Shown piece after piece: positions 21,273 through 34,585 of a stretch of 64,000 nt of DNA. Origin of the DNA: the human T2T-CHM13v2.0 reference genome, Homo sapiens. Numbering within the stretch: position 1 is the stretch's first letter; the number at the start of each line of letters is the position of its first letter. A program made the translations under genes and the position numbers. Under the pieces are notes generated by a model. It ran no database searches, was not told the DNA's origin, and worked only from the letters and a program-made list of their open reading frames with translations. The stretch is taken from assembly GCF_009914755.1 (NCBI RefSeq), contig NC_060939.1, one strand, 5' to 3'.

Positions 21273-21390
21273 AACAACTAAACCGCATAGAAGAAGGCTT
21301 GGACCAAATAAATAAGGACATGAGAGAGACAGAGAAGACTTTAACAGAACTCAACAAATGCTGTGGCCTTTGTGTCTGCCCATGTAATAG
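21273..21390 (+). CDS. SNAP23: SNAP23 exon 5 (EQLNRIEEG...[12 protein letters not shown]), includes the palmitoylated Cys cluster
   Basis: CTTAG| acceptor and |GTGAGT donor, 118 nt; encodes C79, C80, C83, C85, C87. Confidence 0.97.
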
Positions 21391-26321: not shown

Positions 26322-26506
26322 TGATCCATCCACCTCGGCCTCCCAAAGTGCTGGGATTACAGGCGTGAGCCACCGCGCACAGCCCACAAATCCTTTTTTA
26401 AAATCACATATCTTAGGCAGTAATTGATAAATTGTAATTCTAATTAACAAGAATTTGAAAGCAGACAGATTTAAAATGGGAAGTCTCAGAATAGTAAACT
26501 GCTTGA

Positions 26507-26735
<229 letters not shown>

Positions 26736-27483
26736 TAGCCAGGATGGTCTCGATCTCCTGACCTCGTGATCCGCCCGCCTTGGCCTCCCAAAGTGTTGGG
26801 ATTACAGGCGTGAGCCACCACACCCGGCCTTAAACATTCTTAGATAAGGTATTCTTCTGTCTTAACTTGCCTGTTTTATAAAGTCTAACAATGGCACATA
26901 GTTTGAAGACAAATTGGCATTTCTGGACCACTTACTAGAGAAGTTCCAAATTGGCACTACAGGTTTACTGCTATTCCGATCTTAAGTCATACCAAGGTGT
27001 AAAAATTCAGCTCCGACTAATTAAAATGAATATTGAATTATATTTCATTCAGTGGTTTAGTGCTTCTTCCATCCTGCTCACTGGAGACACAAATATGAGT
27101 AAGGCATACCTCTGGCCCTGCCTGTTTTATTTATCATGACATGATTTTTTATACCTCACATAGTATTGGATATACAGTAGTTACTCAATAAACACTTGTT
27201 GATTTGAGTGTCCTTGAGAAACTTGTTGGCTGGTGGGAGAGTTTGACGTGTAAAAAGATTTTTTAAAATTACAATGAAAAAATATATAAGAAAATAAAAT
27301 ACATAATAGAAGTCATTAAGAGAAATCTTAATCACTAAGAGGAAGGAGTCTCAAAGCACTCCATTGGTTTTTGCCTTCTCTCATATTGTCTAATTTTAGG
27401 AAAGAATATCATCACCCAAAATTCTGAGGAAAAATGAAATGTGCTCTGGTTTAAATAGTTTTCTTATTTTTCTTTTTATCTAG

Positions 27484-27516
27484 ATTCTCAGATGTTGGTT
27501 GTTTCTATGAAACCAG
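27484..27516 (+). CDS. SNAP23: Alternative 33-nt SNAP23 microexon (adds FSDVGCFYETR), GC donor
   Basis: Long pyrimidine tract then TAG| at 27483; 33 nt open in the phase-2 frame of exons 5 and 6; CAG|GCAGGA donor; downstream TGCATG x2, CTAAY/ACTAA and YGCY motifs. Confidence 0.75.
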
Positions 27517-29776
27517 GCAGGAAATTGAATGCATTATGTTTTTAAAACTTTAAACCTGCTTCTGTTCTGTTTGACTGGCATTTACTATTTTCTGCATTTC
27601 ATTCTCTCACCTAATCTCTTCCTTTCTAATCTGCTTACTAAAAATGAAGATTTAACATCAGAAGCCGGGCTCAGTAACTGATCAAAGGGAACTTTAAGAT
27701 GCAGTCTTGTGGCGCAGTTTGGGCTGCTAACCTGCTATCTAAAGGTGATGCTTCAAATGGCTTTTCTGTGCATGTGCATGGATTTTGTGAATGGTGAAAA
27801 CTGTCTCTAAACTGTGTGGTGGTGTGTAGTGTAAAGTGAATTTGTTCTTGATGGGTGCTATCTCACAAAAGATGGACTTGACAAAAGGACCTTAATTTAT
27901 AATACCATCCTTTGACAAATGTCTCTGATAACTAAGTTTTTGCTAAATAACATTTAAGATTACCAAAATAACAATACTCCTGGAGTTTCTTAAGAAATTT
28001 AAAATAGGTTGATCTTTGAGACAGCTGCTGCAGTCTAGTTCTGATAAAAGGTAAGGGAAGTCATGCTAAATGCTTCTCTGTCTTCATAGACTTTGATTTT
28101 AGCATCCTGTCTTCCATTAAGTTTCCCTACTTTTTTCTGGTTCTTGAGTCAAGATTTCCTCTATTAAAGTTTTGCTTCTAATGATTAGGATTACCCATGA
28201 TTTAGGCCACTACCAAATTAAGGAATCAATTGCCAGTCTAGTCGTCTCAAATCCTATTTGGAACAAGGTGGGATATAAAATTTTAAATGCTACCATATCT
28301 GGTATCTTCTTTCCTTAAATAAGGGTTTCCCCTCTACATATGTTATAAACTATTCTATAATTCCTGTTACATCATGTGTTAACTTGCTGTGATTTCATGT
28401 TGAATTAATACAAAACTAACTAATATTAATTTTTCATGGGAGGTAAGTTTTGTCAGCTTACTGTTTATTATTGTGTCTGACTCTTAAGTTTAGATCTTTA
28501 TGAGAATTATGAACATGATTAAATGTTAAAAAATTAAGTATTTGATTTCTACCCTTTGTTTCCTGCCCTCCTTTTTTCTTCTTTTCTTAGTTTGACTATC
28601 CAAAGCATACACACACTCACATTCACTCTTTATTATTAGTTAATAGTTATTTGGTCCCTTTTCTCCTTGATGTGAAATAGTCACAGCTAATATTTAGTTT
28701 TATTTTTGCTATTTTTAATTCAGTTAAAACTAATATTGATGCAACCAAAACTAAAAAAAAAAAAAAAAAAAAGAAATTATCGTTTTTGTGCTCATACCTT
28801 GATATTTACAGTTTTATGCTTGATACCAGCTTCCTGAATTGACTAAGGGATATTTCAGATTCTTACTTAAAACTTGCCTTTTTTTTTTTTTTTTTTTTTT
28901 GAGACAGAGTCTCGTTCTGTCCCCCAGGCTAGAGTATAGTGGCTCAGTCTCAGCTCACTGCAACCTCTGCTCCCAGGTTCAAGCGATTCTCCTGCCTCAG
29001 CCTCACGAGTAACTGGGATTACAAGCGTGCGCCACCACACCCGGCTAATTTTTTGTATTTTTAGTACAGAATAGGTTTCACCATGTTGGTCAGGCTGGTC
29101 TTGAACTCCTGACCTCAAGTAATTCACCCGCCTTGGCCTCCCAAAATGCTGAAATTACAGGCGTGAGCCACACACCCGAAAACTTGCCATTTTTGAATGA
29201 GACGTTTAAGTGGGAAAAAAAAAAAAAAGGTTCCAGTTAAAGACTATTAGACCACTCAGAACTAACAGTCAGTTGTAAATCTAAGTTTCTAGATGGAGTT
29301 CTGAACTTCATTAAAATTTATCACAAATTTACTTAGGCATTTTATCATGAAGACTAATTTCTTCCCAGAGGGGCTGTACATTTTATTTTCAAGAGTCCTG
29401 TCACAGATTAGAACTATTCTTTCTTACTGTAGACTAAAACAACCTGGTCCTAGTAATCTTTCATGTCACGATATTCCAACTACATTCATGTACCTGTAGA
29501 TCTCAAAGCCAAGAAATGGTAATGGACCAAAAAGTAAACATGCCAGTTGGTAACCCATGCACTTACAGGCAAGAACTGTTGACTAAAGGTCAGGTTGAAG
29601 TTGAAGCCAATGAATGAAAATATTTATCCAGTGATTTACAAAGCAGTTTTATGTCTGTTATCAACAGAACATTTTACAGCCCTGCTAAACATTAAGTATT
29701 GTTATTATCCTAGTTTTACGTACAAAGAAAGGGATGCTCTGACACTGAAGTTTGCTCAAGATTCTGTAGCTTCTGA

Positions 29777-33742: not shown

Positions 33743-34305
33743 TGATCTTAAACTCCTGAGCTCAAGCGATCCACCCGCCTTGGCCTCCCAAAGTGCTGGG
33801 AGTACAGGCGTGAGCCACTGCACCCAGCATCAGCCTTCTTATTCTGTCATCCCTTGTCAACCTCTGAGATGCCTTCAAGGAACCTCTTAAGGTATCCCAG
33901 AACACCTTTTCTAAGGGACCTTTTTTTAAGTAATGTGCATTAACCTCTTTTCTAGATAGTGCTGGATACACTAGGAAGAGAAAAGCAAAACGATAGTGCC
34001 AGAGGCTAAGGGAACCTGAAAAATCAAATAGTTGCCTTTTGCTACTTGCTAACAGCCTAGTGAAGATTTGGTAGAAGTAGTATTTGGACCTTTTTAAAAT
34101 TTTTTTTAGTGTCAATGGGTTTACATAATTCATCTATTTCCTATTCCATATTGCCATGGAGCATAGTGTAGATCATCTAGACTTAGCTGTATGCAGCTTT
34201 TCTACTAGAGTTATTAGTGTCATCCTCAAGGTAACAGGCACTAATAATTAGAACTCTCCGTCTTCTTTTTTTTGGTATCTCCCTACACTCCTGACTTTTA
34301 TATAG

Positions 34306-34464
34306 AACAAAGAACTTTGAGTCTGGCAAGGCTTATAAGACAACATGGGGAGATGGTGGAGAAAACTCACCTTGCAATGTAGTATCTAAACAGCCAGGCC
34401 CGGTGACAAATGGTCAGCTTCAGCAACCAACAACGGGAGCAGCCAGTGGTGGATACATTAAACG
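34306..34464 (+). CDS. SNAP23: SNAP23 exon 6 (linker TKNFESGKAY...QPGPV...GGYIKR), 159-nt cassette
   Basis: TATAG| acceptor and |GTATGC donor; symmetric phase 2-2, 53 codons. Skipping gives the known 158-aa SNAP23B isoform. Confidence 0.96.
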
Positions 34465-34585
34465 GTATGCCAACTCCTCCTGATATTCCTGTACCTTTCT
34501 TAATGAATGGTTCACTTAGGAGATGAGTTTAGCAGTACATGACCCCTAATAAAACAAATAAAAATTGTATTTATTCCATTTTTAA

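What the first reader, a model, noticed from the sequence alone, without database searches (positions are those of the whole stretch)
27484..27516. Hidden 33-nt in-frame SNAP23 microexon that adds a cysteine beside the palmitoylation cluster
Seen: in the 12.9-kb intron 5 a strong acceptor (TTTTCTTATTTTTCTTTTTATCTAG) precedes ATTCTCAGATGTTGGTTGTTTCTATGAAACCAG. These 33 nt are open in exactly the phase-2 frame joining exon 5 to exon 6, giving ...[28 protein letters not shown]... (222 aa instead of 211). Established: C79-C87 are the palmitoylation and membrane-targeting sites, and their spacing to the downstream QP motif matters for zDHHC recognition in SNAP25-family proteins. Inference: inclusion adds another candidate palmitoylation site and lengthens that spacing, tuning SNARE localisation or exocytosis by tissue. 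I recall a striated-muscle-regulated 33-nt Snap23 microexon being reported, so novelty needs checking. It is absent from the canonical protein and from the ORF track.
Basis: partly seen in the sequence, partly recalled or inferred. Interest (0 to 1): 0.85.

Follow-up and report, generated by a model that had tools for sequence, protein, structure and literature searches.

The report
Known muscle-specific SNAP23 microexon

Summary
Window 27484-27516 holds 33 nt behind a strong polypyrimidine acceptor. Spliced between SNAP23 exons 5 and 6, they stay in frame and insert FSDVGCFYETR directly after the cysteine cluster, giving 222 instead of 211 aa.

It is not hidden. The hub's RefSeq table lists the exon, and Gentile et al. 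2025 (RNA Biol, PMC12064062) is devoted to it. They report a 33-nt microexon included only in postnatal heart and skeletal muscle in mouse and human. Its weak GC donor gives full inclusion when changed to GT. Downstream RBFOX2 and QKI sites activate it, with MBNL in a minor role, and it is skipped in disease models. Their human primers map to exons 5 and 6 of this window.

My additions:
- The human intron has a tandem TGCATGTGCATG at +253 and an ACTAA at +121.
- 43 mammalian SNAP23 protein clusters carry an 11-aa insert, 41 of them with Cys at position 6.

The palmitoylation idea is untested in the library I searched. The spacing idea is weakened by SNAP25 work showing that flexible insertions are tolerated.

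Verdict: already known, low interest.

The parts
21273..21390 (+). SNAP23 coding exon 5 (upstream constitutive exon). Codons for the S-acylated cluster Cys79, 80, 83, 85 and 87 lie at 21359-21385. The exon ends with AG, the first two bases of an Arg codon.
   Evidence: hub RefSeq table. The paper's human forward primer maps to 21367-21386.
27459..27483 (+). 3' splice site of the microexon: polypyrimidine tract plus AG (TTTTCTTATTTTTCTTTTTATCTAG).
   Evidence: 18 of 20 pyrimidines at -22..-3; only 9 of 870 AGs in intron 5 do as well.
27484..27516 (+). 33-nt cassette microexon, phase 2, encoding FSDVGCFYETR. The final Arg codon is completed by the first base of exon 6. The Cys95 codon TGT is at 27500-27502.
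   Evidence: RefSeq 'exons of other transcripts 27484-27516' (hub table); PMC12064062; 11-aa insert in 43 mammalian protein clusters.
27517..27522 (+). Weak GC 5' splice site (GCAGGA).
   Evidence: 6 of 9 matches to CAGGTAAGT, with C at +2. In mouse the donor is also GC, and a C-to-T change gives complete inclusion in myoblasts.
27637..27641 (+). ACTAA, a QKI-type core motif 121 nt downstream of the exon. It is the only exact ACTAA in the 300 nt downstream.
   Evidence: Its role is inferred from mouse, where two QKI motifs lie within 300 nt downstream and bind QKI at nM Kd. Binding at the human site was not tested.
27769..27780 (+). Tandem TGCATGTGCATG, two RBFOX-type motifs 253 and 259 nt downstream of the exon.
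   Evidence: these are 2 of the 4 TGCATG in the 12.9-kb intron (0.09 expected per 300 nt), with none in the 300 nt upstream. In mouse, two RBFOX2 motifs within 300 nt downstream are needed for inclusion. Human function is inferred.
34306..34464 (+). SNAP23 coding exon 6 (downstream constitutive exon). Its first base completes the Arg codon. VVSKQP, which fits the zDHHC17/13-binding consensus, is encoded at 34379-34396.
   Evidence: The paper's human reverse primer maps to 34357-34376 on the minus strand. A VSKQP signature in SNAP23 is named in PMC4571948.

Best explanation
Window 27484-27516 is the known striated-muscle-specific cassette microexon of SNAP23. Its strong acceptor is paired with a weak GC donor, so the exon is skipped by default. 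It is included only where downstream intronic enhancers are occupied, chiefly by RBFOX2 and QKI, with MBNL1/2 as a minor helper. This happens in postnatal heart and skeletal muscle and reverts to skipping after injury or heart failure. Inclusion yields a 222-aa SNAP23 with 11 residues (FSDVGCFYETR) inserted directly after the S-acylated Cys79-87 cluster, in the disordered linker between the two SNARE helices. Shown in print: tissue and stage specificity in mouse and human, the isoform switch at protein level in mouse, the role of the GC donor, and the RBFOX2, QKI and MBNL dependence in mouse C2C12 cells. Inferred here: that the human TGCATGTGCATG at +253 and ACTAA at +121 are the working human counterparts. 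What the peptide does to the protein is unknown. My preferred guess is given as the novel case.
For: Sequence, frame and GC donor. RefSeq lists the exon (hub table). From PMC12064062 I read the abstract, sections 4, 28, 29 and 31-35, and the supplement legends. [quoted passage not shown] The GC donor changed to GT gives complete inclusion. QKI and RBFOX2 knockdown, motif deletion and morpholino block reduce inclusion, and MBNL1+2 plays a minor role. Inclusion is lost after LAD ligation, TAC and BaCl2 injury. The paper's human primers map uniquely to exon 5 and exon 6 of this window. The human intron has two TGCATG and one ACTAA within 300 nt downstream and no TGCATG upstream. Conservation, pooling two database searches: of 165 proteins, 152 have both junction anchors, 106 carry no insert and 46 carry one. 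43 of those inserts are 11 aa with the pattern F-S-D-V-x-C-F-x-E-[T/I]-R. They come from primates, rodents, carnivores, artiodactyls including whales, perissodactyls and bats.
Against: Nothing contradicts the identity of the exon. Limits: I saw no human junction reads myself; the human evidence is the paper's Figure S2A, of which I could read only the legend. Most orthologue proteins are automatic predictions and are related to one another, so 43 clusters are not 43 independent observations. The human downstream region has one exact ACTAA, not two as in mouse. No mouse or other vertebrate DNA was available, so motif conservation could not be checked. The local RNA folds no better than shuffles (z = +0.66), so there is no sign of a structural element.
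Confidence: 0.95

Rival explanations
1. The peptide's job is to remodel protein-protein contacts of the SNAP23 linker, such as accessory proteins, kinases or SNARE regulators, rather than lipidation. This is the prediction of the authors who study the exon.
For: The authors predict this by analogy with brain microexons and with the SNAP25a/b isoforms. The insert lies in a region with pLDDT below 50, where short linear motifs typically sit. F1, S2, F7, E9 and R11 are conserved about as well as the Cys, which suggests more than a lone acylation site.
Against: No partner has been named or tested. R11, and partly F1, are constrained by the splice junctions as well, so their conservation need not reflect protein function.
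Confidence: 0.3
2. The insert acts mainly by lengthening the spacer between the Cys cluster and the zDHHC17/13-binding motif VVSKQP, changing how efficiently the existing cysteines are S-acylated.
For: The spacer grows from 26 to 37 residues. In SNAP25 the spacer length matters for zDHHC17, and rigid 8-12-aa inserts lower S-acylation. SNAP23 binds zDHHC17/13 through this motif.
Against: In SNAP25 only shortening or rigid inserts hurt. A flexible 10-aa insert had no negative effect with zDHHC17 and none with zDHHC7. The SNAP23 spacer is already longer than the SNAP25 one. The insert is modelled without confident structure.
Confidence: 0.1
3. The exon is regulated and conserved mainly as RNA, as part of a co-regulated muscle splicing programme, and the 11 residues are a near-neutral passenger in a tolerant disordered linker.
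For: In SNAP25, replacing the corresponding linker by Gly-Ser of the same length left S-acylation and localisation unchanged. Positions 5, 8 and 10 of the insert vary freely. One lineage lacks any Cys (Nycticebus, P0019) and one has a 10-aa variant (Pipistrellus, P0127). As two papers summarise it, the only published functional test redirected four genes together (Tmed2, Cltc, Snap23, Trip10), so no phenotype is assigned to Snap23 alone.
Against: Length and frame are kept in 43 of 45 mammalian insert-bearing clusters, and Cys6 in 41 of 43. Inclusion tracks tissue health closely.
Confidence: 0.2

Closest known systems
Mouse Snap23 exon 6 microexon (Gentile et al., RNA Biol 2025, PMC12064062; first reported per that paper's references 34 and 41, Giudice et al. 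2014 and 2016, which I could not open)
   Same: Orthologous exon. It has the same length (33 nt), the same position after the Cys-rich motif, the same phase, a GC donor, two RBFOX motifs within 300 nt downstream, and striated-muscle postnatal inclusion also shown for human.
   Different: The peptide differs at 4 of 11 positions (mouse FSVGDCFFETR; human FSDVGCFYETR). Human has one exact ACTAA downstream instead of two QKI motifs. All mechanistic tests were done on the mouse sequence.
SNAP25a/b mutually exclusive exon 5 isoforms
   Same: This is alternative splicing in the paralogue that changes the arrangement of cysteines in and around the S-acylated cluster. It is developmentally regulated and alters handling by acylation and deacylation enzymes.
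   Different: SNAP25 swaps one exon for another, giving nine substitutions and no length change. SNAP23 adds a cassette of 11 residues after the cluster, in muscle rather than neurons.
RBFOX/QKI/MBNL-activated muscle cassette exons with weak 5' splice sites
   Same: Downstream intronic (U)GCAUG and ACUAA elements promote inclusion, and the dependence disappears when the donor is strengthened. An NAR 2025 paper cites this exon as an example of such co-activation.
   Different: None in kind. The GC donor places it in a class that the paper puts at under 1% of human and mouse donors.

Membership tests
Alternatively spliced cassette microexon (51 nt or less) | Length of 51 nt or less, flanked by AG and a U2-type donor | tested here: met
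   33 nt, AG acceptor, GC donor.
Alternatively spliced cassette microexon (51 nt or less) | Multiple of three, keeping the reading frame | tested here: met
   211 aa becomes 222 aa with no stop.
Alternatively spliced cassette microexon (51 nt or less) | Both inclusion and skipping observed in transcripts | not testable with these tools
   No RNA-seq was available. RT-PCR and western blot are reported in PMC12064062, RefSeq has transcripts with and without the exon (hub table), and the paper's primers map to this locus.
Alternatively spliced cassette microexon (51 nt or less) | Conservation of length and frame across species | tested here: met
   43 of 46 insert-bearing protein clusters have exactly 11 aa, across six placental orders. 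No marsupial, monotreme or fish record appeared in the listed rows, so the depth beyond placentals is open.
U2-type GC-AG intron | GC at +1/+2 of the donor with an otherwise consensus-like context, and AG at the intron's acceptor | tested here: met
   CAG|GCAGGA matches CAGGTAAGT at 6 of 9 positions. The downstream acceptor at 34305 is TATATAG|. The consensus string is recalled, not taken from a tool.
RBFOX-activated exon | (U)GCAUG in the downstream intron within about 300 nt | tested here: met
   TGCATG at 27769 and 27775, none in the 300 nt upstream, and 4 in the whole intron.
RBFOX-activated exon | Inclusion falls when RBFOX or its sites are removed | not testable with these tools
   Shown for the mouse exon only.
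SNAP-25 family Qbc-SNARE (host protein) | Pfam SNAP-25 family domain above the curated cut-off | tested here: met
   PF00835 scores 74.9 bits in a 222-aa orthologue and 82.1 bits in the 211-aa cluster that includes ape SNAP23, against a cut-off of 25.
S-acylation site (the claim about the new Cys95) | Thioester-linked fatty acid on that cysteine | not testable with these tools
   No experiment found: 0 occurrences of 'palmitoyl' or 'acylat' in PMC12064062. None of the 17 papers holding SNAP23, palmitoylation, splice, isoform and muscle addresses it, judged from titles and abstract openings. The peptide strings occur in no other paper.

The most novel reading that the evidence does not exclude
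[quoted passage not shown] That would change acylation stoichiometry, acylation and deacylation kinetics, or partition into sarcolemmal or T-tubule membrane domains. Loss of the exon after injury would then reset SNAP23 membrane behaviour to the fetal state. The evidence does not exclude this. Cys at position 6 is kept in 41 of 43 11-aa inserts. Several lineages have gained further Cys at positions 7 or 8 (rhinoceros CCC; pig, Leopardus and Cercocebus C-F-C). The first eight residues are far more hydrophobic than the rest of the spacer (mean Kyte-Doolittle +0.79 against -1.64). One extra cysteine next to the cluster is enough to change enzyme selectivity in this family. Against it: Nycticebus has no Cys in the insert, the insert carries net charge -1 next to a region where positive charge aids membrane targeting, and nobody has measured it.
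Probability: 0.3. Interest if true: 0.4.

Novelty: already known. Interest (0 to 1): 0.1.

Why it matters
SNAP23 is the ubiquitous plasma-membrane Qbc-SNARE, and the paper reports that it is needed for embryo viability and for myoblast differentiation. A muscle-only isoform whose inclusion tracks cardiac ejection fraction and muscle regeneration could serve as a marker, and possibly an effector, of muscle maturity. That is already in print. The open part is biochemical: what the 11 residues do. The conserved cysteine next to the S-acylated cluster gives a direct, cheap hypothesis that the existing SNAP25/SNAP23 S-acylation assays could settle. For this genome scan, the finding is a correct rediscovery, not a discovery.

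Tried and rejected
1. Chance test of the sequence alone. In-frame, open AG...GY windows are common in the intron (653), so the sequence statistics are not evidence. I relied on annotation, literature and conservation instead.

2. RNA family or structure at the site. Rfam gave 0 matches at gathering score over 26500-28500. The fold of 27440-27800 is no better than shuffles (z = +0.66, with 75 of 100 shuffles folding at least as well). I rejected a structured-RNA reading.

3. Structure of the insert. AlphaFold2 on a 222-aa orthologue with the identical insert (P0020) and a 50-sequence alignment gave mean pLDDT 62.3 and pTM 0.24, with residues 80-155 below 50. DSSP draws a helix at 98-115, but at that confidence it means nothing. 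I take the result only as 'no confident structure'.

4. Earlier papers. Giudice 2014 (PMC4018662), Giudice 2016 (PMC5140099) and Gentile 2022 (PMC9836321) are not held. What I say about them comes from the reference list and text of PMC12064062 and from PMC7532667.

6. Conservation below placental mammals. The second protein search listed turtles and a rail without the insert, and one swan record with an unrelated 8-aa insert at the same junction. No marsupial or monotreme row appeared among the 120 rows listed in each search (153 and 328 hits in all), so the exon's age is not settled. No vertebrate DNA collection was available to look for the unannotated exon.

7. A first literature search failed on a term that was too short; I repeated it with other terms.

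Full report
**1. Observation**

The tract TTTTCTTATTTTTCTTTTTATCTAG precedes ATTCTCAGATGTTGGTTGTTTCTATGAAACCAG at 27484-27516. I joined the coding exons of the hub's RefSeq table by coordinates.
- The canonical product is 211 aa.
- With the 33 nt added between exon 5 (ending 21390) and exon 6 (starting 34306), the product is 222 aa.
- The junction reads ...[28 protein letters not shown]....
- The added cysteine is residue 95, eight residues after Cys87.

- The 33 nt are open at two of three offsets, not one.
All six other coding-exon donors are GT.

**2. Is it more than chance?**

Not from sequence alone.
- Intron 5 is 12,915 nt. It holds 653 windows of 9-51 nt that are flanked by AG and GT or GC, are a multiple of three and are open in the required phase. 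33 of them are exactly 33 nt.
- The acceptor is among the best in the intron: 9 of 870 AGs have a polypyrimidine tract at least as rich.
- Even so, 28 candidate windows from 12 acceptors pass a cut-off of 85% pyrimidines. 11 of those 12 acceptors are poly-T followed by GAG.

The case for the exon therefore rests on outside evidence.

**3. Outside evidence: annotation and print**

The hub's RefSeq table lists 27484-27516 under 'exons of other transcripts' of SNAP23.

A full-text search for SNAP23 plus 'microexon' returned 6 papers. The first is Gentile et al., RNA Biol 2025 (PMC12064062), which is devoted to this exon. I read its abstract, sections 4, 28, 29 and 31-35, and the legends in its supplement. 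It reports the following.
- Inclusion occurs only in heart and skeletal muscle during postnatal development and is confirmed at protein level.
- The peptide is conserved in mammals (their Figure S2B).
- The donor is a weak GC. A single C-to-T change gives complete inclusion in undifferentiated C2C12 cells.
- QKI and RBFOX2 are the main activators, acting through two motifs each within 300 nt downstream. MBNL1/2 contribute in a minor way.
- Inclusion is lost after coronary ligation, aortic constriction and BaCl2 injury.

The paper's human primers each match this window once, at 21367-21386 (+) in exon 5 and at 34357-34376 (-) in exon 6. Their human assay therefore spans exactly this junction.

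The paper credits the first reports to Giudice et al. 2014 and 2016, which I could not open. Two other papers describe the 2016 work as redirecting the splicing of Tmed2, Cltc, Snap23 and Trip10 together in adult muscle. A 2025 NAR paper cites the exon as a striated-muscle microexon co-activated by RBFOX2, QK and MBNL1.

**4. What I could add on the human locus**

- Within 300 nt downstream of the exon there is a tandem TGCATGTGCATG at 27769-27780 (+253 and +259). These are 2 of only 4 TGCATG in the intron, against 0.09 expected per 300 nt. By my arithmetic, the Poisson probability of two or more is about 0.004, but the two copies are adjacent and so form one event.
- There is one ACTAA at 27637 (+121) and five YGCY motifs.
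- The 300 nt upstream hold no GCATG.
- This matches the mouse layout for RBFOX but gives one exact QKI core rather than two. Function at the human sites is inferred, not shown.
- Rfam finds nothing in 26500-28500, and the local RNA folds no better than shuffles.

**5. Independent conservation test**

I ran two searches of the large protein collection. One used the exon 6 peptide against longer proteins. The other scored only residues 66-115 of a 222-aa orthologue. Each listed its 120 best rows, out of 153 and 328 hits.

Pooled, I held 165 proteins:
- 13 lack one of the two junction anchors, being fragments or divergent at the anchor, and were set aside.
- Of the remaining 152, 106 have no insert and 46 have one.

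The 46 inserts break down as follows:
- 43 are 11 aa.
- One is 20 aa (Castor; the 11 plus 9 more).
- One is 10 aa (Pipistrellus).
- One is an unrelated 8-aa insert in a swan.

The 43 give 24 distinct peptides with the pattern F-S-D-V-x-C-F-x-E-[T/I]-R. Cys is at position 6 in 41 of 43, and any Cys is present in 42 of 43.
- The two exceptions are strepsirrhine primates. Nycticebus has FSDVGGFWETR with no Cys. Microcebus has FSDVGGFCESR with Cys at position 8.
- Extra cysteines appear at positions 7 or 8 in several lineages.
- Carriers come from primates, rodents, carnivores, artiodactyls including whales, perissodactyls and bats, going by the names.

In the second search, the mammalian insert-bearing proteins score 81 bits or more, the swan record 73 bits, and the insert-free ones about 59 bits or less.

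Caveats:
- Most records are automatic gene predictions.
- Clusters are related by descent.
- Lack of an annotated isoform in a species is not absence of the exon.

**6. What the peptide does**

This is the open part. PMC12064062 does not mention palmitoylation or acylation (0 occurrences each) and predicts altered protein-protein interactions.

- SNAP23 binds zDHHC17/13 through a [VIAP][VIT]XXQP motif (PMC4571948, passages). The human protein has VVSKQP at 114-119.
- In SNAP25, shortening the spacer between the cluster and the motif blocks zDHHC17-mediated S-acylation.
- A flexible 10-aa insert caused no loss and a slight gain. Rigid Ala-Pro inserts of 8 or 12 residues reduced S-acylation (PMC7247313, abstract and passages).
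- The SNAP23 spacer is already 26 residues and becomes 37.
- An AlphaFold2 model of a 222-aa orthologue with the identical insert gives residues 80-155 pLDDT below 50.

So 'longer spacing tunes recognition' has little support.

The 'extra acylation site' idea remains possible.
- The cysteine is the most conserved feature apart from junction-constrained residues.
- The first eight residues are much more hydrophobic than the surrounding spacer.
- A 2026 preprint shows that one additional cysteine at the edge of the cluster changes deacylase selectivity in this family (passages).

Against it:
- The insert has net charge -1, next to a region where a small positive excess promotes membrane targeting (PMC5362264, passages).
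- One lineage lacks the cysteine.

I found no paper testing this.
- A five-term search (SNAP23, palmitoylation, splice, isoform, muscle) gave 17 papers. Judged from titles and abstract openings, none is on this point.
- The two peptide strings occur only in PMC12064062.
- Supplements of other papers and proteomics tables were not searched.

**7. Verdict**

It is already annotated and described in detail, including in human, so the finding is a rediscovery. The remaining novelty is a testable but unproven hypothesis about Cys95.

Noticed in passing
P0128 (Cygnus olor SNAP23 'isoform X1', 218 aa), junction equivalent to window 21390/34306: A bird record carries an unrelated 8-aa insert without Cys at the same exon junction. 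Four turtle records and a rail record listed in the same search have none. It is a single automatic prediction, so it could be an independent microexon in the same intron or an annotation artefact.
   Followed up: partly
P0059 (Castor canadensis, 231 aa) and P0127 (Pipistrellus kuhlii, 221 aa): The beaver record has the 11-aa insert followed by 9 further residues (20 in all), which suggests use of a donor further downstream. The bat record has a 10-aa variant with the Cys shifted. Both are exceptions to the 33-nt rule.
   Followed up: no
window 34306-34464: Exon 6 is 159 nt, or 53 codons, so skipping it also keeps the frame and would give a 158-aa protein without the VVSKQP motif. From memory only, this matches the length of the SNAP23B isoform.
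   Followed up: no
window 34373-34375 (codon of Cys112 of the 211-aa protein): Human SNAP23 has a sixth cysteine two residues before VVSKQP (...NSPCNVVSKQP). The 50-sequence mammalian alignment has Ser as the consensus there, and cattle and Chinese hamster instead have Cys inside the motif.
   Followed up: partly
window 24493, 25112, 25429, 26109, 26552, 28904, 31529 and others in intron 5: 11 of the 12 acceptors in intron 5 with at least 85% pyrimidines upstream are poly-T runs ending in GAG, followed by similar short peptides (for example R-x-S-L-x-L-x-P-R-L-E). They look like antisense Alu tails, the usual raw material for exonisation. None is listed as an exon in the hub table.
   Followed up: no
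window 34371-34545, minus strand: According to the hub table, an exon of another LRRC57 transcript (34371-34545, minus strand) overlaps SNAP23 exon 6 (34306-34464, plus strand), so the two genes overlap tail to tail at exon level.
   Followed up: no
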